This document shows, piece after piece, positions 9,224-41,922 of a stretch of 64,000 nt of DNA. The DNA is from an uncultured Candidatus Saccharibacteria bacterium (lineage in GTDB: Bacteria; Patescibacteriota; UBA1384; 2-12-FULL-50-11): NCBI GenBank assembly GCA_964599405.1, contig CAZRED010000001.1:149942-213941 (forward strand), read 5' to 3'. A program made the position numbers and the translations under genes. Below the pieces are notes generated by a model. The model saw only the letters and a program-made list of their open reading frames with translations, was not told the DNA's origin and did no database searches. How positions within the stretch are numbered: the first letter of the stretch is position 1; each line of letters starts with the position of its first letter.

Positions 9224-9294
9224 AGCGGGGTGGAGGAATGGCACCTCGGGTGGCTCATAACCACCAGTTGCACGTTCGAATCGTGCCCCCGCTA
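9224..9294 (+). tRNA. tRNA with CAU anticodon (Met, fMet or Ile2)
   Basis: Folded by hand. Acceptor AGCGGGG/CCCCGCT, D-arm GAGG-AATGGCA-CCTC, anticodon arm GGTGG-CTCATAA-CCACC, T-arm GCACG-TTCGAAT-CGTGC, discriminator A. Confidence 0.7.
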
Positions 9295-9394
9295 CAAAAA
9301 GAAAGGCCGCCCAACCGGGCGGTTTTTCTTGATAGGCCAACCAAAATGAACTAAAGTCGACTTTACTAGTCAGCGATATGAACGACTGTTACAT

Positions 9395-10170: not shown

Positions 10171-10243
10171 GCCGGTGTAGCTCAACGGTTAGAGCGAAGC
10201 ACTCATAACGCTTAGGCAGGTGGTTCAACTCCACCCATCGGCA
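10171..10243 (+). tRNA. tRNA with CAU anticodon (Met or Ile2)
   Basis: Acceptor GCCGGTG/CATCGGC, D-arm GCTC-AACGGTT-AGAGC, anticodon loop CTCATAA, T-arm GGTGG-TTCAACT-CCACC. Confidence 0.7.
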
Positions 10244-10246
10244 CGA

Positions 10247-13083: not shown

Positions 13084-13266
13084 GGGTCCGTAGCTCAGTG
13101 GCAGTAGCAATCGGCTTAACAGTCAGGCCAGGTGGGAGTGTAGCTCAGCGGTTAGAGCGCCAAGCTTATACCTTGGTGGTCCATGGTTCGAATCCATGCA
13201 CTCCCACCTGGCAGGACTGTATGTAATATATCCGATCGGTCGGAGGTTCGATCCCTCCCGGACCCA
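13084..13266 (+). tRNA. Interrupted (split) class-I tRNA gene: 5' half 13084-13114 and 3' half 13232-13266, separated by a 117-nt insert in the anticodon loop
   Basis: Acceptor GGGTCCG (13084-90) pairs 7/7 with CGGACCC (13259-65). D-arm GCTC-AGTGGCAG-TAGC. Anticodon stem ATCGG (13110-14) pairs 5/5 with CCGAT (13232-36). Variable CGGTC. T-arm GGAGG-TTCGATC-CCTCC. The insert 13115-13231 contains a whole tRNA. Confidence 0.45.
13134..13206 (+). tRNA. tRNA-Ile with UAU anticodon, nested inside the split tRNA
   Basis: Acceptor GGGAGTG/CACTCCC, D-arm GCTC-AGCGGTT-AGAGC, anticodon arm CCAAG-CTTATAC-CTTGG (anticodon TAT), T-arm CATGG-TTCGAAT-CCATG, discriminator A. Confidence 0.75.
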
Positions 13267-25384: not shown

Positions 25385-25506
25385 GGTTGTTACTTCGTAA
25401 TCAACGCCCTGCAGCTACGTCGGGTAAAGTTATAGCTCTCGGCACGTTAACCAGAATTTAACAACTCCGTGCTATCCTTAATATAATTAAGGAGCCGAAG
25501 ATAACT

Positions 25507-26718
25507 ATGTACCGCCAGCACGAATCACCTAAAAAATTTGATTTTGGAAGGTTGGTAATTGTTGCCATCACGGCAGTCGTAATAATTACCGCCACCCTCA
25601 TTTATCTAACCCGCAAAGAAATTATAAAATTTGGCGAGCTTGGCCCTACCCCTCTAGCCTACAACTCCACCCTTTCCTTACTACCTGGTAGCGGGGTACT
25701 TAACTTGGGCGAGCCCCAACGCATTGCTATTCAGCTAACAACGGGTGGTGATGCGATAAACGCCGTCCAGACCACGGTTGTCTATGACCCCCAAAAAGTA
25801 ACGATTACCGAAATTCTGACAACCGATTCTTTCTGTCAGCTCTTTCCGGTTAAAACTATTAACGCCACAATCGGCGAAGCAACGATCGGCTGTGGCTTAC
25901 CAACCCCCGGGTTTAGCGAGGCTACCGGTACAGTTGCGGTGTTATCGCTGGGCCTGAACCAGGCCGGTACAGTCTCGTTGGGATTGAAAGACAGCTTAGT
26001 TTTAGCCAACGACGGGCTGGGAACAAACGTTTTGCGCTCAACCACTGGCGCTGAGTATCAAGTGACCGACAGCTTACAGACAACGACTGTTTTGGCGCAA
26101 GGATCGGGCATGCTGACTGTCGCACCGATTTTGAGCGTTACTTCGCCAACCCACCCAGATCCTGAACAGTGGTATAAAAGCCGGGACGTGCAGTTTGTCT
26201 GGACAGCCACTAGCGGCTACCAATATGTCTACCACTTTGATCAACTTCCAGCCTTGGTACCGGACAGTTCGTTTATAGCTGCCGTTAGCCCTTTAACTGT
26301 AACCGCCCCCGCTGATGGGGTTTTTTACTTCCATATGGCAACAAAAAAGGCCGGGGTCGTCCAATCAATCTACGACCGACCGGTTAGAGTTGATACCGCC
26401 CCACCGCAAACCGTTAATCTTAGTGCCAGTCAAACCGAGATTAAAGTAGGCGAGATTGTTCAGCTCGTGTCGTCAGGCCAAGACGATACCAGCGGCGTTC
26501 AGTCTGCTTTTTACCTGCGAGAGGGTAGCGGCTCCCCCCTGTTTATCGGTGCTAATCACAGCCATACATTTAGCGACCCGGGAGAACACATTTTAGTACT
26601 GCAAGCGTTCGATAACGCTGGTAATTATAGTGAGGATCAGATTGTGATTAGCGTCACTAGCCCCGGGTTCTTTGCCAAAGTCTGGTCTGGTCTGTTGTCA
26701 CTGGTTGGTCTGCGCTAA
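25507..26718 (+). CDS. Membrane-anchored cohesin-like domain protein
   Basis: N-terminal TM. Residues about 60-190 match the cohesin beta-sandwich pattern (INAVQTTVVYDPQKVTITEI compared with cohesin CDFVYSYDPNVLEIIEI). Confidence 0.5.
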   Translation: MYRQHESPKKFDFGRLVIVAITAVVIITATLIYLTRKEIIKFGELGPTPLAYNSTLSLLPGSGVLNLGEPQRIAIQLTTGGDAINAVQTTVVYDPQKVTITEILTTDSFCQLFPVKTINATIGEATIGCGLPTPGFSEATGTVAVLSLGLNQAGTVSLGLKDSLVLANDGLGTNVLRSTTGAEYQVTDSLQTTTVLAQGSGMLTVAPILSVTSPTHPDPEQWYKSRDVQFVWTATSGYQYVYHFDQLPALVPDSSFIAAVSPLTVTAPADGVFYFHMATKKAGVVQSIYDRPVRVDTAPPQTVNLSASQTEIKVGEIVQLVSSGQDDTSGVQSAFYLREGSGSPLFIGANHSHTFSDPGEHILVLQAFDNAGNYSEDQIVISVTSPGFFAKVWSGLLSLVGLR

Positions 26719-26784: not shown

Positions 26785-27516
26785 ATGGTTATGAACCAAC
26801 AAAAAATACTAATGAAAAACATCACATTTGTTGTACTACTCATCGTGACCGTCGTGGCTTTTGTGCTTATTGCGACAGTTAGTAATCTGGTAGCAACCAC
26901 TGTCCCGGGTTTTCCCAACACTAGCTCCACTTCTGATTTTACCCAGACGATTAACCCCGGCACGTTGACAGTGGATATCGTCGACGGCAGTTACGTGGCA
27001 GTTGGTAGCCCGGCCGTAGCGATGAGCGCGGCAACGTTCGGTTTTACCTGTCAGACCACCACTGGCACCTTCGGAACCGGCACCCAGCAAATTTATGTTA
27101 AAAACCCCGACGCTTCCGACACCGGCTGGTCAACTACATTGGCCGCTTCCGCCCCCACCGCTTTTTGGGACAGTGCCGGTACTGATATGGACTTTAACGA
27201 CCCAACAACTGCTGGCTGTACTGATGGTGCCGACGCCGATAGTTTGAAAGGCCAAATGACGGTTGATCCTTCGGTCGGTACATTGGCCGTTGGGCAGTGC
27301 TTAAGCTGTGTGGTCACCAACGTCACCAAAGGATCGCTGGCGGCATTTAACCAAGCCACTCTCGATAGCATCACTATCTTAAGCGGCGCTGCAGGGTCGG
27401 ATGATATCGGCGACTGGAAATTAACCGGTGTATCGATTAGCCAAAAGATCCCGGGCGAACAGCCAGCGGCCAGCGACTACACCATTCCTCTGACACTTTC
27501 GATTGTGGCCATCTAA
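26785..27516 (+). CDS. Small secreted protein with a C-terminal WxL-like module (paralog A)
   Basis: N-terminal TM/signal, then a roughly 170-aa module shared with 27503-28228 and with the C-terminus of the 1914-aa protein. Trp-x-Leu motifs GDWKLTGVS and GWSTTL. Confidence 0.6.
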   Translation: MVMNQQKILMKNITFVVLLIVTVVAFVLIATVSNLVATTVPGFPNTSSTSDFTQTINPGTLTVDIVDGSYVAVGSPAVAMSAATFGFTCQTTTGTFGTGTQQIYVKNPDASDTGWSTTLAASAPTAFWDSAGTDMDFNDPTTAGCTDGADADSLKGQMTVDPSVGTLAVGQCLSCVVTNVTKGSLAAFNQATLDSITILSGAAGSDDIGDWKLTGVSISQKIPGEQPAASDYTIPLTLSIVAI

Positions 27517-28210
27517 AGTTTGGGGGATTATCAAAAACAATACATTCCTCCTCGTCATCATCTCCATTGTCGTGCTGTCGATACCGTTTATTGTTAATGC
27601 CTTAATTACCAACGAAGCCCCACGATTACCAAACACCGCCGACGTTAACTTCACCCATACCATCAACCCCGGCACGTTGACGGTGGATGTTGTGGATGCT
27701 AGTTATGTCGTCGTCGGCAGTCCATCGGTGGCAATAAGCGCCTCAACCTTTGGTTTTACCTGTCAGAGTGCAACTGGGCTTTTTGGTACGGCCACCCAGC
27801 AAATCTACGTCAGAAATCCCGACGCGGCCGATAACGGTTGGGTAACGAGTTTGGCCGCTTCCGTCCCCACCGCTTTTTGGGACAGTGCCGGGACCGATTT
27901 AGACTTCAACGATCCGACGACTGCTGGCTGTACTGACGGCGCTGATACCGATACCTTGAAGGGTCAGATGTCGGTTAACCCAACCGTGGGGACATTGGCC
28001 ATCGGGCAGTGCGCCAGCTGTACTACTACCAACGTCACTAAGGGCTCCTCATCGGCCTACAACGAAGGGACGGTAGACAGCATTACCATTTTGAGCGGCG
28101 CCGCGGGGTCAGATGACATCGGCGACTGGAAATTAACCGGTGTGTCTGTTAGTCAAACTATTCCCGCCGAACAGCCAGCGGCCAGTGATTACAATATCAA
28201 CCTAACTCTT
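26940..28210 (+). repeat. Tandem gene duplication (two roughly 560-bp near-identical coding repeats)
   Basis: 26940-27500 and 27650-28210 encode near-identical modules (TINPGTLTVD...LTLSIVA). Confidence 0.7.
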
Positions 28211-28228
28211 AGTATTGTTGCCAGCTAA
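27503..28228 (+). CDS. Small secreted protein with a C-terminal WxL-like module (paralog B, tandem duplicate)
   Basis: About 80% identical to paralog A over the module. 14-nt overlap with the upstream gene. Confidence 0.6.
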   Translation: MWPSKVWGIIKNNTFLLVIISIVVLSIPFIVNALITNEAPRLPNTADVNFTHTINPGTLTVDVVDASYVVVGSPSVAISASTFGFTCQSATGLFGTATQQIYVRNPDAADNGWVTSLAASVPTAFWDSAGTDLDFNDPTTAGCTDGADTDTLKGQMSVNPTVGTLAIGQCASCTTTNVTKGSSSAYNEGTVDSITILSGAAGSDDIGDWKLTGVSVSQTIPAEQPAASDYNINLTLSIVAS

Positions 28229-28269: not shown

Positions 28270-29271
28270 ATGAAAAAACTACATCTAAAAAAACTCTTAT
28301 TGGCAACCAACCTAATGACTGTGCTGTCGTTATTGTCGCCCAACTTTGCCCAGGCAATTGAGTATGGTGGCGTTGGTGGAAAACCGGCCAATCCGATTGC
28401 CGGCAACTCTCGAACCGAGTCAATATTTATCCACACCCTTGAGCCGGGAGCAACCCAAGAAGACGGGGTGCTGGTGGTAAATAATAGCCCCGAGACTAAA
28501 ACCCTGTTGGTCTATGCAGCCGACTCCACTCCTTCCACCGATGGCGCTTTCGCCTGTAAGCAACTAACCGAAGAGAAGACCGACGTCGGTGCTTGGATTA
28601 CCTTAAAAAAGTCAGAGGTAACACTGGAATCCGGTACCAAAGAAACCGTTCCCTTCACCATTCGCACTCCTCTAACCGCCAGCGTTGGCGAACATAACGG
28701 CTGTATCCTGATTCAGGAAAAGAAAGCCGCCGTTGAAGGCCAAACCGGCGCGGCCATATCGATGCGGACCGGTCTGCGCGTCGCTATTACTATTCCTGGA
28801 GATATCCTTAGAAAACTGGAAATTGGCGCCCTGACAGTGGCACCAACAGACGCTGGATTTTCCCTTACCCCCACAGTTAAAAACATTGGTAACGTCTCAA
28901 TTGACGCAAACGTTCGGGTAATAACACGCAATTTCATTGGGATGACGCATTTCACGAACGGCGGAGAGTTTCCGATTCTCCGAGGCGATACCTCACAGTG
29001 GAATTTCGATTTGAAAAGACCGTTTTGGGGCGGTTTTTACCGTTCCACCCCCGGCGTTGAGTACGACGAAAATCCAGAAGCGGGCGTTGGACTAAAAAGC
29101 GGCAAGGCGCTGACTAATTTAACTGGAGCCACCGTTTGGTTCTTTAGTTTCCCAACGCTACCGGCCTTACTAATCGAAATCTTGGTACTACTGTTTATTT
29201 TCCTTGGCTTACCGTTGATCATTCGCCAGATCCGCAAAAATCGCTCAGTGCCTTCAGTGCCGCTAGCTTAG
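28270..29271 (+). CDS. Signal-peptide protein with a C-terminal TM anchor and short basic tail (DUF916/CscA-like architecture)
   Basis: 333 aa. Lipobox-less signal peptide. C-terminal helix FPTLPALLIEILVLLFIFLGLPLII is followed by RQIRKNR. Confidence 0.45.
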   Translation: MKKLHLKKLLLATNLMTVLSLLSPNFAQAIEYGGVGGKPANPIAGNSRTESIFIHTLEPGATQEDGVLVVNNSPETKTLLVYAADSTPSTDGAFACKQLTEEKTDVGAWITLKKSEVTLESGTKETVPFTIRTPLTASVGEHNGCILIQEKKAAVEGQTGAAISMRTGLRVAITIPGDILRKLEIGALTVAPTDAGFSLTPTVKNIGNVSIDANVRVITRNFIGMTHFTNGGEFPILRGDTSQWNFDLKRPFWGGFYRSTPGVEYDENPEAGVGLKSGKALTNLTGATVWFFSFPTLPALLIEILVLLFIFLGLPLIIRQIRKNRSVPSVPLA

Positions 29272-29308: not shown

Positions 29309-32300
29309 ATGACTAAGCTCCAAATACAACTCCTGCTTGTGATTGGTCTATTGGCGTTGATTGTCAGTGGTTCCTTGGCGTTACGTAAACCGCCCTCAGT
29401 AACTCCGCCCGAAGCTACCTACCGCTACCGCCCACTATCAGAGCTGAAGCTCAATACCACGAATCGGGACAAGTATTTCGTTGGCCAGCACGAAGTGGTT
29501 CCGACGACGGAGCCAATCACGGCGGCTGTGCCACCACTGGCGCACCAAGCTCGGCTCTCTTTGAACAGCGCTCACCCCGGTCTACCAAATACTGGTGCCG
29601 GCGATTTTGATACCTCGATTAAAGCCACTGGCACGGGTTCGATTGCCGAAGCGGTACCGAAAAGCTCCCAGGCCAAAGCGGGTCTGTATCAGCTGAAAGT
29701 AACCGACGGGGTCACTGGGCAGGTAGTTTCTGACCAGACCGTTGCCTGGGGCGTATTAGTTTTTAACTCCGATTACGCCGCCTATCCAATCAACACCAAA
29801 GCCAGACTAGCGATGGCGGTTTTGGACGACCGTGGCAAGATGATCTGTGACGCCGAGCTGACGCTGGCGATCACTGAGCCCAACGGCCGAACTATTACAT
29901 TAAGCACGGCTAATAACCAAATTCTCGTTAATGAGGCCTGTTTTGTCTACGGATTGACCGAAGAGCCAGACTACGTGGCCGAATATTTACCAACCCAAGC
30001 TGGTAACTATCAGGTTGCCTTAACCGCTCGGATCGGTAACGGCGTTAGAGTGCTACACGATCAATTCTCCGTGGTCGAAAACGCCCCGTTCTATCTGCAA
30101 AGGGTTGGTGCTTCCCGAACCTATCCGGCCGCTAGCTATCCCTACACCTTTAACTTTCAACCCACCCAAAGCGGTCGTTACCAATTAACCGAAAACGTGC
30201 CGGGCAGTTTCGAAATACTCGACCTGACGATTGACGGCAACCCCTGCCCGACGGAAAGCTTACTGAACGCCGGAGCTTGCAAGATTGAGGTCTCTGAGGA
30301 CGGCAATGAGAAGCAATTAATCTGGCGGGTCGACGCCCGAGCCAATCGTGATATAAAGATCGCCTATACATTTAAGGGGCCTAGTATTTCGCCGTATTTA
30401 TTCCGGCTTGGACCGGCCGAAATCACCTCACCCGACGACTCAATTTGGACGGAGACACGTTCTTGGCTAATTGCCTCCGATGCCGCTTGCCAATCGAACG
30501 GCACTGGCGGCGGCAACTCCAACGCATCTGGCTCTTGGCAGACCTGCGGTGGGACGACCCCGCAGGCCGCTGACTCAATTACCATTCTGAGCGGCGACAC
30601 CATTACTATGAACGCCGCCTTGAGCGTCACCAGCATTGTTATCAACAACGGCGGCATTTTTACCAACAACGCCAGCCCCTTCACCTTAACGCTCACCGGT
30701 ACCACTGGCACCCTCTTCACCTTGGGCGCAACCGGTACCTTCACGCCCGGCACTTCGATTAGCGTCACGATGAACCCAAATGCTTCAATTACCACTACCT
30801 CCGGTACCATTACTTTTTTTGACTTAAACTTTACGCCGACAATCTCTGCCAGCAACAAAACCTATACGATGGGTTCCGGCGCTCTGACCATTAACGGCAA
30901 CTGGGCTATTACCGGTACGGCCGCGAGTAACGCCTTAACCTTAACGGTTAATATGAGTGCCAACGTGACGGTGGCTTCGACAAAAACCACGACGATTGGC
31001 CCGGCGTCGTTAACTAACAGAGCCACTTTGGACGTACAGCCCTCACTGGCCAGCTACAACCTAACGACCGGTACCCTGGCTATCACCGCCCTAGGTACGC
31101 TAAACGCCGCCAATGCCACCTCGGCGATTACGGTTGCCAACAGCTACAGCAATAGCGGCATTTTCACCGCCGGTTCTAGCACGGTTAGCTTCACCGCTAC
31201 TGCCACTGGTAAAACTTTGAGCGGTACACTATCCGGCGCTAACGGTAAATTCTTCAACGTCATTTTCAACGGCGTCGGCGGTGCCTGGGCATTCGGTGCT
31301 GCCGTCGAAGTAGCTAACGACTTTACCGTTACAAATGGGGCCGTCACTGCTAGTAACAATAATCTCTCCGTCACTCGTGACTTTACACTGGCTTATACCG
31401 CCGGTGTTTCTTACGTGGCTGGATCGTCAACCGTTACCGTCGCCAGACACTTCAATGACCCTGGCGTCAAATACGTTTCTAACACTTCCGAGCTGGCTCT
31501 GGACGGCACGGGCACTTTAACCACCGCTACAACTGCTTCCCTTTACGATGTATCGCTTGGCCAATCCGGCAACACAACAACACTGGCAATGGCCGGAGCG
31601 ATCGACAACTTTAACTACTACGCTAGCGACACAGATCATTTCCGGGTCCTGCTCTTCGACGGGAGTGTTGTCAAATACAAAAGCGCCGAGATAACCCCGC
31701 CCGGCACCGGTGTCAGAAGCTATACTCCGCCATCCCCTGTCCCCTACAAAGCTGGCTGGAGTATCGGTATCTATACCGTCGGTAATGGCGTCATTCCCTA
31801 CACCGGTAGCGGCGGCACACACTACTACCAAGCCAATAACTCTGGCCAACCAAACGAGGAAGCTACGATTTCCTGGCAAGGAACAACAGTCCGAACCTAT
31901 TCGATTAACGGCGAGGTCAACGGCGTCCGGGTAATCGGCAATGACGCTATCAGCCGGCCTTCGCTCGACTCATTCACTAATACCTCCCTGAAAGACACCA
32001 ATAACAACGCTACGGGGGTGGCGGAAGGATTATTAACTGTGACCAACGGCGCTACCTTGAACGGCGGTACGGTTACCGGCACTGATACCGGACTATTTCT
32101 ACCGTGTAGCACAACTTGTTCCGGCCACCTGGTCTTTAACTCACCGACCACCTTGAGCGGCTCCGGCGACAACCGGGTAGTTTACTCAACCGGCAACTCA
32201 ATAACCTATACCGTTACTGGGGGAACCTACGGCAGTTGGAATATTGCAATGGAGACAACCACCCTGTCCGATACGCCGATAACGTTCGAGCTTGGGGGAA

Positions 32301-35053
32301 ATATTATCACCGACGGGTTTGTCGCCCTTCAAGGGTCGCCCCTGGGTGGGAGCAATAGCTTCAACACCGCCGGTTTCAATATGACCGCACTGCGTTTTGA
32401 CGCTGGCAGCGAAAACCAGACCGGTAGTTGGGTCGTTAATCTTGGCGCCTCAACAATTACCCTGGACTCGACTAGCGACTCCTTTGGCGTAGCCAGCAAC
32501 GGCGGCTCCCATACCTTCAACCTCTCTACTTCCTCTGTCTCCACGACTGGGGATATCCGGTTTATTAACGGTACCGGTACAGTCGCCGCGTCTGGCAGTA
32601 CTTCCACGATTACGATGACACCAGCCGCTTCGACCACCCGGACTTTCACCACTAACGCCCAAACGATTGATAACTTTGTCGTTAACGGCGGTAACGGTGC
32701 CGCCACTGTCAACCTGGACGGCAATTTAATTGCCTCTGACAACTTAACGATTACCGCTGGTACTTTGGACGTTACGGCAACGCCGTACAGCGTCACAATC
32801 GGCGGCAACTACTCTAACTCCGGCAGCTTTACTCCCCGGTTGGGTACTGTGACTTTTAATGCTACCGACGCGGGTAATACTCTGGCGGGCACGATGACCG
32901 GTGCGTCAGCCTTTTATAATCTCGTTTTCGACGGCGTTGCTGGCGGCTGGAGCTTTAGCGCCGCGGTGACGGCAACGAACGACTTTACCGTTACCAACGG
33001 GGACGTTACCGCCAATAACAATAACTTGACTGTTACCAGGGACTTTACGCTAACTAACGTGGTGGGCGTTTCCTACACGGCCGGCTCCTCCACCATCACC
33101 GTTAGCCGCGACTACAATAACCCCGGCGACCGGTTTGTTCGTGGCACATCATTAGTTATCCTTGACGGCACCGGCAACGTTAATACCACTGGCGGTAAAT
33201 TTAATAACCTTTCTCTGGCTTACACCTCACAAGTCTCAACCTTCAATACCACCAACTTCGCGGTTTACGGCGTTCTCACCTTTAACGGCGGTACCGCCAA
33301 CGGGAGTGTTGACGGTTACGTTTCGCTGGAGCGATCTGCTAGCGCTACCCCAATTGTGTTCGCATCAGCCACCACCCTCTCCGGCACTAGTAGGACGCTT
33401 TTTCATAACAACAACGCCAATAGCCTGACTACCACCATCGCTGGTGGTAACTACGGGACGTGGAATATTATTTTGTTTACTACCCTTGGGCCTGCCACCA
33501 GTAGTATCTACCAGTTAGCCGGTAATATTACTAACACTGGTTACGTTACCCTCCAGGCCGTTGGGGGATCGACGGGCAACGTTTTTAACACCCAAAACTT
33601 CAACATTACATCGCTACGGTTTGACCTCGGCACCCAGTCCCGAACCGGACCGTGGACTGTCAATTTTGGGTCTTCGACGCTGACCCTTTCTGATACTGCT
33701 GATTCGTTTGGCGTTGCTAGTAACGGCGGCTCTCATACCTTCAACCTTTCAACCGCCGCCATCAACACCGTTGGGAACGTGCTGTTTGCCAACGGCACCG
33801 GCACCGTGTCCGTGAGTCAGGGCACCTCGACCGTGACTTGGGCGCACCCAACTGGTACCAAAACTTACGCCCCCAACAGCCAATCTCTGCACAATCTCAC
33901 GCTCAACAGCGCCGCTGGTACCCTTCAACCCAATGGTGCCGTTATTGCTACCGGCAACTTTATTATCACCGCCGGCAGCTACGACACCGTTGCTGGCCAA
34001 GACTACGCCTTAACGATCGGCGGCAACTACACCAACTCCGGCACATTTAATGCGCAGGGTGGAACGGTTACCCTAAACGGCTCCGCTACCCAAACGCTTT
34101 CTGGCACGATGGTCGGCGGTAGCGCATTCAATAACTTAACGATTACCAATAATTCTGGCACATCGGCTAGCGACTGTGAGCGAACAAGTTTTGTCCCATC
34201 AGTGGACTTTAATGCCGCTGCTTGGACAAGCGGTAACTACACCATCACTACGGCCAATGTTCGGGTCGAGTACAACTCCGGCTCTACCTACGCCTTCACC
34301 AACATCAATTGGAACGGTCAGACGATTGGGACACAGATTTACTTCCGCAACTCGGTCGCCAGCGACACCTGGCTGTTGGATGTTTCGGGAACGCAGACAG
34401 CTGTCTCCTACGTTAACGTCTCCCGGTCTAACGCCGCTAGTGGCCTTCAGATTGTTGCTAGCGACGGTACCAACACTGACTGCAACAACAATAGTAACTG
34501 GCTTTTCGTTTCTGGTGCCTTATCGACCGATATCGTTAACGCTGGCGGCACTCCAATTGATTCACCATCTATCGCCATGGGTGCAGCCACATTCTCCCTT
34601 TTATATCAAACAGTTAGCGGTATCTTTGGCGCCACTGATGAAAAAGTCAGAGTTAGTAACACCACCGTTAACCCCCAATGGAGCTTGACGATTGCCGCCA
34701 GTAGCGGTCCGACTGGGCTCTGGTCGGCTGGGACACCGAAGTATGACTTTAACGACCCAACTGGGAGTGCAGGAGACGGCGGCGATGGCGACGCTTACGG
34801 GGGACAGCTGACAATGGATGTGACTGGTGGAACCCTTGGTGGAACCTGCTCGACGACCGGAATAACTAAAGGATCATCTGCTGGTTTTTCTGAAGGAGTG
34901 GTCAACTCAATCACCCTGCTCACGGCCAGTGGCACGGCCGACGTTAGTTGCTATTGGGATTTAACCGGCGTGGACGTACTTCAAACCCTACCTTCCGAGC
35001 AAGCAACTAGCAGCTACTCCATCAATATGACTCTCACTATTACCGCCAATTAA
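29309..35053 (+). CDS. Giant (1914 aa) repeat-rich surface protein ending in the WxL-like module
   Basis: Signal/TM at the N-terminus. Long Thr/Gly/Asn-rich beta-solenoid-like repeats with two roughly 400-aa internal duplications. The last roughly 170 aa are homologous to the two small paralogs (YWDLTGVDV, QWSLTIAAS). Confidence 0.7.
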   Translation: MTKLQIQLLLVIGLLALIVSGSLALRKPPSVTPPEATYRYRPLSELKLNTTNRDKYFVGQHEVVPTTEPITAAVPPLAHQARLSLNSAHPGLPNTGAGDFDTSIKATGTGSIAEAVPKSSQAKAGLYQLKVTDGVTGQVVSDQTVAWGVLVFNSDYAAYPINTKARLAMAVLDDRGKMICDAELTLAITEPNGRTITLSTANNQILVNEACFVYGLTEEPDYVAEYLPTQAGNYQVALTARIGNGVRVLHDQFSVVENAPFYLQRVGASRTYPAASYPYTFNFQPTQSGRYQLTENVPGSFEILDLTIDGNPCPTESLLNAGACKIEVSEDGNEKQLIWRVDARANRDIKIAYTFKGPSISPYLFRLGPAEITSPDDSIWTETRSWLIASDAACQSNGTGGGNSNASGSWQTCGGTTPQAADSITILSGDTITMNAALSVTSIVINNGGIFTNNASPFTLTLTGTTGTLFTLGATGTFTPGTSISVTMNPNASITTTSGTITFFDLNFTPTISASNKTYTMGSGALTINGNWAITGTAASNALTLTVNMSANVTVASTKTTTIGPASLTNRATLDVQPSLASYNLTTGTLAITALGTLNAANATSAITVANSYSNSGIFTAGSSTVSFTATATGKTLSGTLSGANGKFFNVIFNGVGGAWAFGAAVEVANDFTVTNGAVTASNNNLSVTRDFTLAYTAGVSYVAGSSTVTVARHFNDPGVKYVSNTSELALDGTGTLTTATTASLYDVSLGQSGNTTTLAMAGAIDNFNYYASDTDHFRVLLFDGSVVKYKSAEITPPGTGVRSYTPPSPVPYKAGWSIGIYTVGNGVIPYTGSGGTHYYQANNSGQPNEEATISWQGTTVRTYSINGEVNGVRVIGNDAISRPSLDSFTNTSLKDTNNNATGVAEGLLTVTNGATLNGGTVTGTDTGLFLPCSTTCSGHLVFNSPTTLSGSGDNRVVYSTGNSITYTVTGGTYGSWNIAMETTTLSDTPITFELGGNIITDGFVALQGSPLGGSNSFNTAGFNMTALRFDAGSENQTGSWVVNLGASTITLDSTSDSFGVASNGGSHTFNLSTSSVSTTGDIRFINGTGTVAASGSTSTITMTPAASTTRTFTTNAQTIDNFVVNGGNGAATVNLDGNLIASDNLTITAGTLDVTATPYSVTIGGNYSNSGSFTPRLGTVTFNATDAGNTLAGTMTGASAFYNLVFDGVAGGWSFSAAVTATNDFTVTNGDVTANNNNLTVTRDFTLTNVVGVSYTAGSSTITVSRDYNNPGDRFVRGTSLVILDGTGNVNTTGGKFNNLSLAYTSQVSTFNTTNFAVYGVLTFNGGTANGSVDGYVSLERSASATPIVFASATTLSGTSRTLFHNNNANSLTTTIAGGNYGTWNIILFTTLGPATSSIYQLAGNITNTGYVTLQAVGGSTGNVFNTQNFNITSLRFDLGTQSRTGPWTVNFGSSTLTLSDTADSFGVASNGGSHTFNLSTAAINTVGNVLFANGTGTVSVSQGTSTVTWAHPTGTKTYAPNSQSLHNLTLNSAAGTLQPNGAVIATGNFIITAGSYDTVAGQDYALTIGGNYTNSGTFNAQGGTVTLNGSATQTLSGTMVGGSAFNNLTITNNSGTSASDCERTSFVPSVDFNAAAWTSGNYTITTANVRVEYNSGSTYAFTNINWNGQTIGTQIYFRNSVASDTWLLDVSGTQTAVSYVNVSRSNAASGLQIVASDGTNTDCNNNSNWLFVSGALSTDIVNAGGTPIDSPSIAMGAATFSLLYQTVSGIFGATDEKVRVSNTTVNPQWSLTIAASSGPTGLWSAGTPKYDFNDPTGSAGDGGDGDAYGGQLTMDVTGGTLGGTCSTTGITKGSSAGFSEGVVNSITLLTASGTADVSCYWDLTGVDVLQTLPSEQATSSYSINMTLTITAN

Positions 35054-35081: not shown

Positions 35082-36089
35082 GTGAGTTTGTTTCGTTATC
35101 CTAATATTGGTAGGGGTGTAATCGATTCCATGAGAACTGGCCGTTTTAAACTGTTTGCTTTGATACTAGGTCTGACCATAGTAGCGTTTGGGAGTGGCAT
35201 AAAAACCGTCGCCGCCCAAGACAGTCCCAGCGTCTTATATGTCCCCTTAATCGGCCTAACATCGGTACCAGATCCGTTGGCACTACCGGATGGGGCGGGT
35301 GATGTAACGTATCATTACGCAGTTAAAAACTTTCTTAGCGAGGCGGCTTTAACTAACGTCCAAGTCGTCGACGACAACTGTGCCTCCGTTAAATTTATCG
35401 AAGGCGACGATAATAACGACTCCGAGCTTGATTACGACGAAACCTGGCGCTACACCTGTACCACTAAAGTTTCCGTCACCACTCAAAGTACGGCCACGGC
35501 CACCGGTACTGCCAATAATTTAACCGCGACTCACAAAGCCTACGTTACCGTTATTGTTGGTCTAAGTGACCCAGCCCCACTTGTTAGTATTGTTAACATC
35601 ACCAAAGTTGCCTATCCATTGTCCCTACCGGCCGAAGGAGGCGACATTACCTTTATCTATAAGGTTAACAATCCAGGCGTCGTGTCATTAAGTGATGTCA
35701 CTGTCGTTGATGATAGGTGTGGGGCGATGTCCGGCAAACTCGGGGACAGGAACGGCAACGGCCTGCTGGATACCAATGAGGTTTGGATTTACACCTGTAC
35801 AATGACTCTGAGAGAGACTACTACCAATACCGCCACCGTTACCGCTTTTGCTAATGGATTAATGGCCACGAATAACTTTTCCCTGACCGTCAAGGTTGAC
35901 ACCCTAGTCGATCAGGCGCTCATCAAACTTCCCGATACCGGCAAAGATGCGCTATTAAAAATTATGGTTTGGGAAATCTTATTAGGTATATTGGTAACTC
36001 TACTCACCATATCTATTGTTTTAAACCGAAAGAATCGACTGCGAAGCGTTGAAATTACACAAAATATCTTAGACGGGGGAAGAAAGTAA
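35082..36089 (+). CDS. LPXTG-anchored surface protein with two tandem roughly 110-aa repeats
   Basis: C-terminal LPDTG, hydrophobic helix, then NRKNRLRS. Repeats contain VVDDNC...WRYTCT and VVDDRC...WIYTCT. The likely start is the internal Met at 35130. Confidence 0.65.
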   Translation: MSLFRYPNIGRGVIDSMRTGRFKLFALILGLTIVAFGSGIKTVAAQDSPSVLYVPLIGLTSVPDPLALPDGAGDVTYHYAVKNFLSEAALTNVQVVDDNCASVKFIEGDDNNDSELDYDETWRYTCTTKVSVTTQSTATATGTANNLTATHKAYVTVIVGLSDPAPLVSIVNITKVAYPLSLPAEGGDITFIYKVNNPGVVSLSDVTVVDDRCGAMSGKLGDRNGNGLLDTNEVWIYTCTMTLRETTTNTATVTAFANGLMATNNFSLTVKVDTLVDQALIKLPDTGKDALLKIMVWEILLGILVTLLTISIVLNRKNRLRSVEITQNILDGGRK

Positions 36090-36132: not shown

Positions 36133-37044
36133 ATGAAAAGACCAAAATTAGTATTAATAATTATTGTGCTGGTTGTTGTAGCCGCGTTGGGGGCCGGAGT
36201 TTATTTCAAGCTGATTCCCCGTCTGTTCCAAAAACCCGTCGCCACAGTAGTCGATCAGCTATTCGGTTGGAAGTTTCCAATTACCAAATTCCCACTGGTT
36301 GGGCCGGATGGCCAACTGGCGTACTCCAACATCCGTGATCCTGGCGGTATACCACAAGGGCTACCAGTTCGCCTGAAAGTTCCCGTTATCGGCGTCGATT
36401 CAGCTATTGAAGACGCGCTGATTACCCCGGACGGAAGAATGGACGTGCCAATCGGCTCGGTTAATGTTGCCTGGTTTTCTCTTGGCCCTCATCCCGGCGA
36501 CGAAGGAAGCGCGGTGATCGGTGGGCATTTTGGGATTAGAGACGGGGTGCCGTTCGTCTTCTACAACTTAGACAAGCTAAAGGTTGGCGACAAGGTATAT
36601 GTGGTCGACGACAAAGACCAGACATTGGCTTTCCAGGTCAGGGAAATTAAATTATTCGATCGAAACGCTGATGCAACGACGGTTTTTACCTCCGATGACG
36701 GGTTGGCTCATCTTAACCTGATTACTTGCGAAGGCATTTGGAACCAAGTTGACGGTTCGTATCCCGAGCGGCGAGTAGTGTTTACCGATGCCATACCATC
36801 AGAAGGGGCAGTAACCGTTACTCCTAAGTCTCCAACGGCGGCGATTCCCACGCCAAACCCAACACCAACTCCGACACCAACTCCGACAACAGAAAATACA
36901 GTATCTACAGCTGCCTTGCTTCAGAGCGTGAATCGGGCAATAAAAAGTGCGGCCAGTACGCCAATCGACGCACTAATCACTTTCACCCTACTAGCTTCGA
37001 TAGCGTATATGGCCACCAAAATCGTCAGGCTCCGCAGAGCATAG
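36133..37044 (+). CDS. Sortase family transpeptidase
   Basis: N-terminal TM. Catalytic His in GGHFG, TLxTC-type motif LNLITCEG, Arg in RRVVFTD. Pro/Thr-rich linker and C-terminal TM. Confidence 0.75.
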   Translation: MKRPKLVLIIIVLVVVAALGAGVYFKLIPRLFQKPVATVVDQLFGWKFPITKFPLVGPDGQLAYSNIRDPGGIPQGLPVRLKVPVIGVDSAIEDALITPDGRMDVPIGSVNVAWFSLGPHPGDEGSAVIGGHFGIRDGVPFVFYNLDKLKVGDKVYVVDDKDQTLAFQVREIKLFDRNADATTVFTSDDGLAHLNLITCEGIWNQVDGSYPERRVVFTDAIPSEGAVTVTPKSPTAAIPTPNPTPTPTPTPTTENTVSTAALLQSVNRAIKSAASTPIDALITFTLLASIAYMATKIVRLRRA

Positions 37045-40311: not shown

Positions 40312-41253
40312 ATGAGGGTTCTGAACATGACTAAGCCTAGTAAGTATTCAACAATCAATGTATTGATCGCTTCCTTGGTGGTTGGACTCGCTGGTGTAGT
40401 TGTAGCATTCGCGGCCGGCCCCACAACCGTCAATCTTGGCACAGCCGAACCTTTTGCCATCCTAGCTGGGACTCCTGATATTACTGACTCTCCGACATCG
40501 ACTATTACTGGAAACGTTGGGTTGTACCCAGGCCCTGCTTCCGGTATCGGGCTACTTTGTTCACAAGTAACCGGGACAATCTATGGGCGCGATGGCACGG
40601 GTGACCCGTGTTTTACGGTCAACGATCCGTTACTCCTGGCGGCCAAGAACGACTTAACTGCCGCGTTTACCGATGCAGCCGGGCGAACACCGGTTATTAT
40701 TGTACCAACCGAGCTCGGCGGAACGACTAAATTTGCAGGTGTTTACGCCTCTGACGACACTACGTTTCAGATTTCGGCACCAATCCCCCTCATCCTCGAT
40801 GGACAAGGCGATCCCAATGCCGTTTTCATCTTCGAAATGAATGCGGAGGGAACCGGACTGACTGTCGGACCGGGTAGTGTGGTACAGCTCACGGGCCAGG
40901 CCCAGGCCTGCAACGTCTTTTGGCGAGTAGACACAGCTACTATCGACAGCACCGCGGTATTCAAGGGTACTATCCTGGCTCTGACCTCGATTACGGTGGC
41001 TAACGGCGCCAACATTGAAGGAAGACTATTGGCTCGTAACGGTAGCGTCACCTTAATTAACGACACCATCACCAAACCGACTTGTGTAGCAGCGGCTACA
41101 GTCACTCCGCCGGCAACTACGCCATCTCTCCCCGACACTGGTCTAACTCCCGATGGCAGCAACAGTGCCGTGTGGAGCGTTATTATCCCAGTTTGGGCCA
41201 TTGCCGGTCTGTTCTCGTTCTGGTTAGTTCGACGCAAACAGCGGACGATTTAG
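40312..41253 (+). CDS. LPXTG-anchored ice-binding-like (DUF3494) beta-helix protein
   Basis: AEPFAILAGTPDIT...GNVGLYPG and CNVFWRVDTATIDSTAVFKGTILALTSITVANGANIEGRLLARNGSVTL are DUF3494 hallmarks. C-terminal LPDTG, TM, then RRKQRTI. Confidence 0.7.
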   Translation: MRVLNMTKPSKYSTINVLIASLVVGLAGVVVAFAAGPTTVNLGTAEPFAILAGTPDITDSPTSTITGNVGLYPGPASGIGLLCSQVTGTIYGRDGTGDPCFTVNDPLLLAAKNDLTAAFTDAAGRTPVIIVPTELGGTTKFAGVYASDDTTFQISAPIPLILDGQGDPNAVFIFEMNAEGTGLTVGPGSVVQLTGQAQACNVFWRVDTATIDSTAVFKGTILALTSITVANGANIEGRLLARNGSVTLINDTITKPTCVAAATVTPPATTPSLPDTGLTPDGSNSAVWSVIIPVWAIAGLFSFWLVRRKQRTI

Positions 41254-41301: not shown

Positions 41302-41922
41302 ATGGGTCTATCACCAGCTCCATTAAAACGAGTGCTATTAGCTATCAAGCTGGTGGGGGTGTCAGCGGGAATTGTCGTCTCTTTGGCAATTTACTCTGCC
41401 AAAAATACCCCCGACTATGAAAACGTCTTAGTGCCCGTTGAGAAAATCGTCGTTCCTTCGGTGGTAGCGCCGGCTCTTTTGGCTTCTCCGTTGCGACTGA
41501 AGATTCCTAAGATTGAGGTTAACGCCGTCATCGAATACGTCGGTCTGAACACTGATGGAGCAATGGGAGTGCCGAAAGATCCCGCCGATGTTGCTTGGTT
41601 CAATCTCGGGGCACGACCCGGTGAGGTTGGTAGCGCGGTAATCGCCGGGCACTACGGGTGGAGAAATAATATTCCAGCGGTATTTGACGATCTCCATAAA
41701 TTGCGTCCTGGTGATACCTTAGTAATCGAGGACGACAGAGGAGCAAGCACCACCTTCGTGGTGCGGGAAAGCCGCCGGTACGACCCGACAGCGGACGCCT
41801 CGGAGATATTTTTGCAAAGCGACGGGATAGCTCACCTTAACCTAGTTACCTGCGAAGGGGTGTGGAACGTCGCTACTGATAGTTACTCTCGGCGGCTGGT
41901 GGTATTTACCGACAAACAGTAG
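41302..41922 (+). CDS. Sortase family transpeptidase (second copy)
   Basis: Paralog of 36133-37044 (IAGHYGW, NLVTCEG, RRLVVFTD). N-terminal TM. Confidence 0.75.
   Translation: MGLSPAPLKRVLLAIKLVGVSAGIVVSLAIYSAKNTPDYENVLVPVEKIVVPSVVAPALLASPLRLKIPKIEVNAVIEYVGLNTDGAMGVPKDPADVAWFNLGARPGEVGSAVIAGHYGWRNNIPAVFDDLHKLRPGDTLVIEDDRGASTTFVVRESRRYDPTADASEIFLQSDGIAHLNLVTCEGVWNVATDSYSRRLVVFTDKQ

What the first reader, a model, noticed from the sequence alone, without database searches (positions are those of the whole stretch)
29309..35053. 1914-aa protein built from long internal duplications of a Thr/Gly/Asn-rich beta-solenoid-like unit
Two roughly 400-aa blocks are clearly duplicated. Examples are SSTVSFTATATGKTLSGTLSGANGKFFNVIFNGVGGAWAFGAAVEVANDFTVTNGAVTASNNNLSVTRDFTL against GTVTFNATDAGNTLAGTMTGASAFYNLVFDGVAGGWSFSAAVTATNDFTVTNGDVTANNNNLTVTRDFTL, and FGVASNGGSHTFNLST appears twice. 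Short NxT/S-rich strands suggest a parallel beta-helix fibre such as an adhesin. The many N-x-S/T sequons could be glycosylation sites.
Basis: seen in the sequence. Interest (0 to 1): 0.5.

Follow-up and report, generated by a model that had tools for sequence, protein, structure and literature searches.

The report
Giant beta-helix surface fibre, CPR bacterium
The 1914-residue gene is real and internally duplicated, and it most likely encodes a long beta-helix surface fibre held on the cell by a previously unnamed C-terminal domain, as part of a three-gene cassette conserved across the ultra-small CPR (Patescibacteria) bacteria that resembles the WxL adhesion clusters of gut Firmicutes.

Summary
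ORF 29309..35053 (+) encodes 1914 aa with about 2.5 copies of a roughly 410-aa super-repeat (E = 2e-44 and 5e-30 with composition correction). Copy 1 carries a 141-aa orphan insert.

The context is the new information. The last 178 aa form a beta-sandwich domain paralogous to two small secreted proteins encoded just upstream. A DUF916 (WxL-interacting-protein) homologue with a C-terminal TM anchor lies between them. An LPDTG protein and a sortase follow.

The order small, DUF916, large recurs in CPR loci from several lineages. The domain is C-terminal in 147 of the 150 best of 601 protein clusters, on passengers of 132-2069 aa. This mirrors Firmicute WxL/Csc clusters, but the domain shows no detectable homology to WxL (PF13731).

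Best reading: the large subunit of a CPR variant of the WxL-type surface complex, probably an adhesin. A sortase-like N-terminal motif remains unexplained.

The parts
29309..35053 (+). Gene for the 1914-aa 'large' surface protein (whole ORF including the stop codon).
   Evidence: ORF list and translation. An identical protein, P0001, is in the public collection on a 326-kb contig. It has 45 homologues, all unnamed giant proteins from CPR/Patescibacteria.
29309..29386 (+). N-terminal hydrophobic segment (aa 1-26, MTKLQIQLLLVIGLLALIVSGSLALR), a Sec signal peptide or signal anchor.
   Evidence: Read from the sequence. Homologues also begin with one TM segment. Whether it is cleaved was not determined.
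29582..29596 (+). LPNTG (aa 92-96), a sortase-type motif in an unusual N-terminal position.
   Evidence: it is the only such motif in the first 200 aa, and 0 of 194 homologous large proteins have one there. The same motif type occurs in both small paralogues. Its function is unexplained.
29636..30478 (+). Two Ig-like N-terminal domains (aa ~110-390). The first is MG2/macroglobulin-like by transitive homology. These are the presumed distal, binding end.
   Evidence: aa 55-397 are 41% identical to P0004 (E = 9e-73). P0004's MG2 hit (aa 196-238) and P0013's (34.4 bits, above the cut-off) fall on the equivalent of window aa ~155-197. The window protein itself gives only weak Ig-like hints (DUF4397, Filamin).
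30506..34168 (+). Thr/Gly/Asn/Ser-rich repeat region (aa ~400-1620), predicted to form a right-handed parallel beta-helix stalk. It starts with a G8-like cap in homologues.
30974..32596 (+). Super-repeat copy 1 (aa 556-1096), interrupted by the insert.
31598..32020 (+). 141-aa orphan insert in copy 1 (aa 764-904, AIDNFNYYASDTDHFRV...), absent from copy 2.
   Evidence: Boundaries come from the copy 1 / copy 2 alignment. No Pfam or PDB sequence match. Modelled at pLDDT ~30 with no secondary structure, so its fold is unknown.
32597..33829 (+). Super-repeat copy 2 (aa 1097-1507).
33830..34168 (+). Partial super-repeat copy 3 (aa 1508-~1620).
   Evidence: aa 1508-1657 match aa 1102-1248 and aa 556-650. 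This is the best-modelled part of the helix, at pLDDT 79-96.
34169..34516 (+). Conserved C-terminal cap of the helix (aa 1621-1736, CERTSFVPSVDF...NINWNGQ...YFRNS...VSYVNVSRSNA...NNSNWLF).
   Evidence: Conserved in P0002, P0003, P0004, P0005, P0011, P0013, P0028 and others. pLDDT 77-96. No Pfam match.
34517..35050 (+). C-terminal ~178-aa beta-sandwich anchor/assembly domain (aa 1737-1914). It has W-x-L motifs at W1791-S-L and W1883-D-L, and an acidic loop D1813-x-N-D...D1823-G-x-D-x-D.
   Evidence: 38% identical to both small upstream proteins. AlphaFold pLDDT 78.7 and pTM 0.79, all-beta. 601 representative clusters carry it, and it is C-terminal in 147 of the best 150. Invariant residues are listed. 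No Pfam WxL hit, and hhalign against genuine WxL gives 1.3% and 0.3% probability.
26785..27516 (+). Small paralogue 1 (243 aa): an N-terminal hydrophobic leader followed only by the anchor-type domain.
   Evidence: The family has 762 hits at 60-91% identity across CPR lineages, all unnamed and without a Pfam domain.
27503..28228 (+). Small paralogue 2 (241 aa by the ORF list; the public gene call, P0051, is 218 aa).
28270..29271 (+). DUF916 / WxL-interacting-protein (WxLIP) homologue: signal peptide, PGBD domain, a second beta domain, a C-terminal TM helix and a basic tail.
   Evidence: Pfam PF06030 scores 31.5 bits, above the 27.3 cut-off. tblastn hits annotated 'DUF916 domain-containing protein' genes with E down to 6e-15. 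hhalign gives 98.7% to the Clavibacter protein, 96.4% to Cohnella and 43% to the E. faecium WxLIP. The TM helix and tail are read from the sequence.
25507..26718 (+). PKD/OmpL47-like membrane-anchored protein. It is the first gene of the same-strand run and a possible accessory.
   Evidence: Pfam PKD and NCBIfam OmpL47 domains. Homologues lie near the cassette in L010 and L015. The best promoter-like site, 25458-25487, lies just upstream, but such sites are not more frequent here than in shuffles.
35082..36089 (+). DUF7507/DUF11-type protein with a canonical C-terminal sorting signal (LPDTG, then a hydrophobic stretch, then RKNR).
   Evidence: It is adjacent in this window only; no homologue was found next to the cassette in the 26 genome loci.
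36133..37044 (+). Sortase (closest to class F), the last gene of the same-strand run.
   Evidence: Pfam Sortase, E = 1.6e-17. NCBIfam class F sortase scores 101 bits, below its cut-off. The NLITCEG active-site motif is read from the sequence.

Best explanation
The ORF encodes the 'large' subunit of a three-component cell-surface complex that is conserved across CPR/Patescibacteria and is built like the WxL/Csc clusters of Firmicutes.

The protein is exported by Sec through its N-terminal hydrophobic segment. Its body is a long right-handed beta-helix stalk that grew by duplication of a ~410-aa block, giving 2.5 copies. One copy has acquired an orphan 141-aa insert. Two Ig-like (MG2-type) domains sit at the N-terminal end, and a conserved cap closes the helix.

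The last ~178 aa form a beta-sandwich domain that is also the whole mature part of two small secreted proteins encoded upstream. I infer that this domain docks on the membrane-anchored DUF916/WxLIP homologue encoded between them, and probably on the cell wall too, so the fibre is held non-covalently by its C-terminus while the N-terminal domains project outward. The most likely role is adhesion, to a host cell or a surface, as expected for an episymbiont.

Shown here: the ORF and its repeats, the domain paralogy, the DUF916 homology, the conserved synteny, the strictly C-terminal and modular use of the domain, and the beta-helix fold of the modelled parts. Inferred: the physical interaction with the DUF916 protein, cell-wall binding, orientation, and adhesive function.
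For: - Repeats.
- Domain paralogy: 38% identity to both small ORFs.
- DUF916 homologue: Pfam above cut-off, tblastn to annotated DUF916 genes, and hhalign up to 98.7%.
- Synteny: small gene(s), then DUF916, then a larger protein of 343-2185 aa ending in the same domain. This order is seen in most of the 26 loci from Levy-, Doudna-, Peri-, Sacchari-, Gracili- and Tagabacteria.
- Modularity: 601 representative clusters, with the domain at the extreme C-terminus in 147 of the best 150 and protein lengths of 132-2069 aa.
- Operon-like layout: seven same-strand genes with gaps of 66 nt or less.
- The published definition and model of WxL clusters (small WxL + large WxL + DUF916-DUF3324-TM, often LPxTG, with large proteins carrying beta-helical adhesin, A2M and Ig domains and anchored by the C-terminal domain) match this layout (PMC9772566 and PMC10599100).
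- The genome encodes MurJ and an L,D-transpeptidase with a PG-binding domain, so a peptidoglycan wall is expected.
Against: - The C-terminal domain is not detectably a WxL domain. None of 70 members hits PF13731 at E <= 10. Profile-profile probability against 16 genuine WxL proteins is 1.3% and 0.3%.
- Pfam does not detect the DUF3324/HBD half of WxLIP in the window protein.
- The match to the Lactobacillales WxLIP is weak, at 43% probability and covering the first domain only.
- The stalk model has low confidence (pLDDT 56.6), and Foldseek found nothing significant.
- The LPDTG protein and sortase are not found beside the cassette in other loci.
- No interaction, localisation or binding was tested.
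- The small paralogue's very high conservation (60-91% identity across classes) is unusual for a mere wall anchor and hints at a self-assembling role.
Confidence: 0.6

Rival explanations
1. The cassette builds a polymeric fibre. The highly conserved small proteins polymerise by donor-strand exchange, like archaic chaperone-usher, TasA or cannulae subunits. The DUF916 protein, with its two Ig-like domains and a TM anchor, acts as the chaperone or assembly base. The 1914-aa protein is the tip subunit, analogous to FimH: a C-terminal pilin-like domain plus an N-terminal functional part.
Confidence: 0.15
2. It is a surface-displayed polysaccharide-degrading enzyme (a lyase, hydrolase or depolymerase) on a beta-helix scaffold, used to attack a host cell wall or capsule, rather than an adhesin.
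Against: No Pfam or NCBIfam catalytic family hits the protein at E <= 1. The sequence is dominated by T, G, S and N, with D + E at only 6%. The closest folds include as many non-enzymatic adhesins. No conserved catalytic residues were identified.
Confidence: 0.1
3. It is a passive envelope component, such as an S-layer-like coat or spacer fibre, with no specific ligand.
For: The cassette is very widespread and its small and DUF916 components are strongly conserved, which suits a housekeeping envelope structure.
Against: The passengers vary from ~130 to over 2000 aa and differ in domain content. That pattern is typical of variable, interaction-facing modules rather than a uniform coat.
Confidence: 0.1

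Closest known systems
WxL / Csc cell-surface clusters of Firmicutes (Lactiplantibacillus plantarum Csc, Enterococcus faecium Lwp/Swp/DufA, E. faecalis Elr, Listeria)
   Same: The gene set and logic are the same: one or two small secreted proteins consisting only of a ~180-aa beta domain, one large protein carrying the related domain at its extreme C-terminus behind adhesin-type domains (beta-helix, A2M/MG2, Ig), and a DUF916 protein with a C-terminal TM helix. In this window there is also an LPxTG protein with a sortase. The DUF916 component is a true homologue. The big protein even has two W-x-L motifs on predicted strands.
   Different: The shared domain is not PF13731 and shows no significant profile similarity to it. 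The small paralogues' first motif is GW-x-x-x-L rather than W-x-L. Pfam does not detect DUF3324. The organisms are CPR bacteria rather than Bacilli. The large protein is two to four times longer than typical large WxL proteins (500-1000 aa). The DUF916 branch is closer to actinobacterial and Paenibacillaceae proteins than to Lactobacillales WxLIP.
Right-handed parallel beta-helix adhesins and passengers (Fap2, Vag8, Hap, UpaB, VacA p55; L. reuteri SRRP binding region; Caldicellulosiruptor tapirins; S. pneumoniae PfbA)
   Different: There is no beta-barrel translocator or TPS domain, and no C-terminal LPXTG signal on this protein. There are no Pfam beta-helix, PbH1 or PATR hits. Anchoring is through a separate beta-sandwich domain paired with a DUF916 protein.
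Donor-strand-complemented filament subunits (Csu/CFA pilins, TasA-like DUF1102, Pyrodictium CanX)
   Same: They have a small beta-sandwich subunit, a tip protein made of a functional N-terminal part plus a C-terminal subunit-like domain, and an Ig-like partner protein. These are the best, though weak, structural neighbours of the C-terminal domain.

Membership tests
WxL / Csc cell-surface cluster | At least one WxLIP protein with a DUF916 (PGBD, PF06030) domain. | tested here: met
   PF06030 scores 31.5 bits against a 27.3 cut-off, over aa 48-149 of ORF 28270..29271. tblastn hits annotated DUF916 genes. hhalign gives 98.7%, 96.4% and 43%.
WxL / Csc cell-surface cluster | The WxLIP also has a DUF3324 (HBD, PF11797) domain and a C-terminal TM helix. 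| tested here: inconclusive
   The TM helix and basic tail are present in the sequence. PF11797 is not reported at E <= 10. A second domain does align with the Clavibacter and Cohnella DUF916 proteins, up to aa ~243-262.
WxL / Csc cell-surface cluster | At least two proteins with a WxL domain (PF13731), one small and one large. | tested here: not met
   There is no PF13731 hit for the big C-terminus, the two small ORFs or 67 relatives at E <= 10. hhalign against 16 genuine PF13731 proteins gives 1.3% and 0.3% probability. A different shared domain occupies the same positions.
WxL / Csc cell-surface cluster | The shared domain is always at the extreme C-terminus of the large protein, and the small protein is a signal peptide plus that domain only. 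| tested here: met
   The domain is C-terminal in 147 of the best 150 carriers. The small proteins are a leader plus a ~195-aa domain.
WxL / Csc cell-surface cluster | Two conserved Trp-x-Leu motifs on adjacent beta-strands that form a buried platform. | tested here: inconclusive
   The big protein has W1791-S-L and W1883-D-L, both in predicted strands, and both Trp are near-invariant. The small paralogues have GWSTTL / GWVTSL at the first site. Whether the strands are adjacent could not be read, because model coordinates are not exposed.
WxL / Csc cell-surface cluster | Non-covalent binding of the domain to peptidoglycan, and binding to DUF916. | not testable with these tools
   This needs binding assays or multimer modelling.
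Right-handed parallel beta-helix (pectate-lyase-like) fold | A stack of three-stranded coils forming a right-handed solenoid. | tested here: met
Type V autotransporter / two-partner secretion adhesins | A C-terminal beta-barrel translocator, or an N-terminal TPS domain with a TpsB partner. | tested here: not met
   No such Pfam or NCBIfam hit. The C-terminus is a 178-aa beta-sandwich. No TpsB-like neighbour is present.
Sortase-anchored LPXTG surface proteins | A C-terminal LPXTG motif followed by a hydrophobic segment and a basic tail. | tested here: not met
   The protein ends ...SSYSINMTLTITAN with no sorting signal. Only ORFs 35082..36089 and 40312..41253 have one.
Donor-strand-exchange pilins (chaperone-usher, TasA-like) | An incomplete Ig fold completed by a strand from the next subunit or a chaperone. 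| tested here: inconclusive

The most novel reading that the evidence does not exclude
In this lineage a sortase, not signal peptidase, removes the N-terminal membrane anchors of the cassette proteins.

- In the window's subclade of the small-protein family (15 of 100 members), [LF]P[ND]T|[GSA] replaces the usual YVLA|S signal-peptidase site in exactly the same register. Either cut leaves the same mature N-terminus, (A)TSNFTQTIN.
- The giant protein uniquely carries LPNTG at aa 92-96, while 0 of 194 homologues have such a motif.
- A sortase closes the operon.

Cleavage would free the fibre's N-terminal tip after its C-terminus has docked. That would be a new use of sortase, as a leader peptidase or release switch.
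Probability: 0.15. Interest if true: 0.7.

Novelty: new variant of a known kind. Interest (0 to 1): 0.5.

Why it matters
CPR/Patescibacteria make up a large share of bacterial diversity and, where cultivated, live attached to host cells. The molecules that mediate attachment, apart from type IV pili, are largely unknown.

This work identifies a cassette that is widespread and strongly conserved across CPR lineages, including Saccharibacteria, some of which can be cultivated and genetically manipulated. The cassette pairs a DUF916/WxLIP homologue with an unnamed ~180-aa domain family (601 representative clusters) that carries very diverse passengers, the window's 1914-aa beta-helix fibre among them.

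It extends the WxL-type surface-complex design well beyond Firmicutes, using a different anchor domain, and it gives concrete candidates for CPR adhesins. I found no paper in the held library linking CPR to WxL or DUF916. The giant repetitive beta-helix protein on its own is an ordinary kind of thing.

Tried and rejected
- Pfam and NCBIfam scans on the whole protein and on its parts gave nothing usable. The MG2 hit at aa 1425-1457 and the SPP1_Dit hit are below cut-off and are taken as noise.
- PDB sequence searches with the N-terminus, the insert and the domain profile found nothing.
- The AFDB fold libraries were not available, so the domain model could not be compared with AlphaFold WxL models.
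- tblastn of the small paralogue against plasmids gave no match.
- I tried to bridge to WxL through the Clavibacter 208-aa gene upstream of its DUF916 gene. Its C-terminus looks alike (GSWT...DAGDYSSTITLSLF), but hhalign is not significant and it has no Pfam hit.
- A wider CPR-domain profile did not improve the WxL comparison.
Assignment to CPR therefore rests on the homologues' names.
- The glycosylation reading was rejected because sequons are not enriched.
- The autotransporter and LPXTG-anchored readings were rejected on the C-terminal sequence.
- Promoter and terminator scans were no better than shuffles.
- The motif-sortase association test was underpowered. Only the window is an informative PxT-type locus, and 1 of 30 AxA-type loci has a sortase nearby.
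Full report
**Observation.** ORF 29309..35053 on the + strand is open for 1914 codons. The protein is rich in Thr (15.4%), Gly, Ser, Ala and Asn. A tiled self-comparison shows two strong off-diagonals. With composition-based statistics and low-complexity masking, aa 916-1095 match aa 1324-1503 at 50% identity (E = 2e-44), and aa 607-727 match aa 1162-1281 at 59% (E = 5e-30). Shuffled copies never exceed 67 bits. The repeat is therefore real and not an effect of biased composition.

The repeat layout is as follows:
- Copy 1 is aa 556-1096 and carries a 141-aa insert at aa 764-904.
- Copy 2 is aa 1097-1507.
- A partial copy 3 runs from aa 1508 to about aa 1620.
- A weaker related stretch covers aa 404-550.

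**What the protein is made of.**
- It starts with one hydrophobic segment (aa 1-26).
- Residues 55-397 are 41% identical to the N-terminus of the homologue P0004. In P0004 and P0013, Pfam places an MG2 (macroglobulin-type Ig) domain at the position equivalent to window aa ~155-197. It places a G8 domain, a known N-terminal neighbour of beta-helix repeats, at the start of the repeat region.
- An AlphaFold2 model of aa 540-1739, supported by 23 homologous segments, has low overall confidence (pLDDT 56.6, pTM 0.42). It contains only short beta-strands and no helix. It is confident for aa ~1509-1729 (pLDDT 79-96) and moderate for aa ~1109-1259.
- Hydrophobic residues show periodicities of 2 and of multiples of about 7 residues.
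- The insert has no Pfam or PDB relative and is modelled without structure. Its nature is unknown.
- A ~116-aa segment (aa 1621-1736) is conserved in many homologues and closes the helix.
- N-x-S/T sequons number 43 against 40.3 +/- 5.3 expected from composition. They give no support to glycosylation.

**The C-terminal domain and the neighbourhood.** The last ~178 aa are 38% identical to two small ORFs immediately upstream, 26785..27516 and 27503..28228. Apart from an N-terminal leader, those two consist of this domain only.

Between them and the big gene lies ORF 28270..29271. It matches Pfam WxLIP_PGBD (DUF916) above the curated cut-off and ends in a TM helix and a basic tail. Its DUF916 identity has two independent confirmations:
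- tblastn hits genes annotated 'DUF916 domain-containing protein' in Clavibacter, Streptomyces, Arthrobacter, Cellulosimicrobium and Cohnella, with E down to 6e-15 for an unannotated match in Embleya.
- A CPR profile matches the Clavibacter protein at 98.7% probability, the Cohnella protein at 96.4% and the E. faecium WxLIP at 43%.

Downstream are a DUF7507/DUF11 protein with a canonical LPDTG sorting signal and a sortase. A PKD-domain protein lies upstream. The seven genes share one strand with gaps of 66 nt or less.

**How general it is.**
- The big protein's 45 homologues are all unnamed 1,400-3,300-aa proteins of Patescibacteria (Microgenomates, Nomurabacteria and others) with the same overall plan but variable C-terminal ends. 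P0008 shares this exact C-terminal domain.
- The small paralogue belongs to a family of at least 762 clusters at 60-91% identity across CPR lineages. None has a name or a Pfam domain.
- In 26 loci from GTDB species genomes (Levy-, Doudna-, Peri-, Sacchari-, Gracili- and Tagabacteria), the order small gene(s), then DUF916 homologue, then a larger protein of 343-2185 aa ending in the same domain recurs in most loci.
- An exhaustive HMMER search with the big protein's domain finds 601 representative clusters (508 at E <= 1e-10). In 147 of the best 150 the domain ends within two residues of the C-terminus, in proteins of 132-2069 aa (median ~750).
- Some passengers carry autotransporter-type PATR beta-helix repeats.
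- The LPDTG protein and sortase are not found next to the cassette elsewhere.

**Comparison with the known system.** Hassan and Williamson define WxL clusters as one WxLIP protein plus at least two WxL proteins, often with an LPxTG protein.
- The WxLIP protein has a DUF916 PGBD domain, a DUF3324 HBD domain and a TM helix.
- The small WxL protein is a signal peptide plus the domain.
- The large WxL protein has N-terminal adhesin domains, including beta-helical adhesin, A2M and Ig domains, plus a C-terminal WxL domain.
- They propose that the C-terminal domain and WxLIP hold the complex on peptidoglycan while the other domains point outward.
- More than 91% of known WxL sequences are from Firmicutes (PMC9772566 and PMC10599100).

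The window's cassette reproduces this design gene for gene. I then tested membership directly. I reached a genuine cluster on E. faecium plasmid pDMEA1 and collected 16 PF13731 proteins.
- Profile-profile comparison with the CPR domain gives 1.3% probability, and the only aligned piece is the first GW-x-L motif.
- A more diverse CPR profile of 218 sequences gives 0.3%.
- None of 70 CPR members hits PF13731 even at E <= 10.

The DUF916 partner is therefore a homologue, but the anchor domain is not demonstrably WxL. It is either a very remote relative or an analogue.

**Mechanism.** The best-supported reading (confidence 0.6) is a Sec-exported, C-terminally docked beta-helix fibre that forms the large subunit of a CPR variant of the WxL-type complex. 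The N-terminal Ig-like domains would be the distal, probably adhesive end. The genome encodes MurJ and an L,D-transpeptidase with a PG-binding domain, so a wall to bind is expected. The docking, the orientation and the adhesive role are inferred, not shown.

The rivals are:
- A polymeric fibre in which the small proteins are subunits and the big protein is the tip (0.15). This is prompted by the extreme conservation of the small protein and by its fold neighbours.
- A surface-displayed polysaccharide-degrading enzyme (0.1).
- A passive coat (0.1).

**An unexplained detail.** In this window all three cassette proteins carry [LF]PNT[SAG] shortly after the N-terminal hydrophobic segment.
- In the small family, 15 of 100 members (the window's nearest relatives) have [LF]P[ND]T[GSA] in exact register with the predicted signal-peptidase site of the others. 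Compare APQFPNT|GATSN-FTQTIN with GATYVLA|SATSS-FTQTIN.
- None of 194 homologous large proteins has such a motif in its first 200 aa. I estimate that about 0.005 would be expected by chance.
- A sortase is in the operon here, but in only 1 of 30 loci with the ordinary leader. The other two loci with the unusual leader are cut off too early to tell.
- I found no literature on this.
- It could mean that a sortase acts as a leader peptidase, but this rests on a single informative locus.

**Verdict.** The added value is its membership in a conserved DUF916-linked cassette with an unnamed anchor domain. I rate this a new variant of a known kind of system, of moderate interest.

Noticed in passing
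window 26785..27516 (aa ~43-47 FPNTS), 27503..28228 (LPNTA), 29582..29596 (LPNTG in the big protein); family members P0046-P0074, P0100: A sortase-type [LF]P[ND]T[GSA] motif follows the N-terminal hydrophobic leader. In 15 of 100 small-family members it lies in exact register with the signal-peptidase site (YVLA|S) of the rest. It is unique among 194 large homologues, and a sortase sits in the same operon.
   Followed up: partly
window 40312..41253 and 41302..41922: A second surface-protein/sortase pair: an Ice_binding (DUF3494) protein with an LPDTG sorting signal, immediately followed by its own small sortase.
   Followed up: partly
window 31598..32020 (aa 764-904 of the big protein): A 141-aa insert is present only in repeat copy 1. 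It has a beta-like hydrophobic pattern but no Pfam or PDB relative, and it is unmodelled (pLDDT ~30). It may be an orphan binding module grafted onto the helix.
   Followed up: partly
window 34745..34792 approx. (aa 1813-1828); alignment of 218 domains: A near-invariant acidic loop, D-x-N-D ... D-G-x-D-x-D, plus an invariant Cys1847 in the C-terminal domain family. It looks like a metal (Ca2+) site. This loop is the least confident part of the model.
   Followed up: no
L028 7089..7715 and 7848..8903 (Clavibacter phaseoli plasmid pCCh): An actinobacterial DUF916 gene is preceded by an unannotated 208-aa protein whose C-terminus (GSWT...DAGDYSSTITLSLF) resembles the CPR domain's end. The pair is flanked by GH43 genes. 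DUF916 may have non-WxL small partners outside Firmicutes, but hhalign was not significant.
   Followed up: partly
L006-L008, L011, L017, L019 (Peribacteria/Gracilibacteria loci): The cassette genes appear split into several short ORFs under translation table 11, as expected if these lineages read UGA as a sense codon (code 25). Sizes in those loci are therefore underestimates.
   Followed up: no
window 13134..13208: tRNA-Ile with anticodon TAT (UAU), an uncommon way for bacteria to read AUA. Two tRNA-Met(CAT)-type genes lie nearby at 9224..9295 and 10171..10244.
   Followed up: no
window 10723..12882 (-): A 719-aa protein with a Lamin Tail Domain and fn3 domains, another predicted surface protein in this region.
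   Followed up: no
P0053, P0057 (small-family members of 309-317 aa): Some small-family proteins carry an extra N-terminal PG_binding_1 (PF01471) domain, which independently links the family to peptidoglycan.
   Followed up: no
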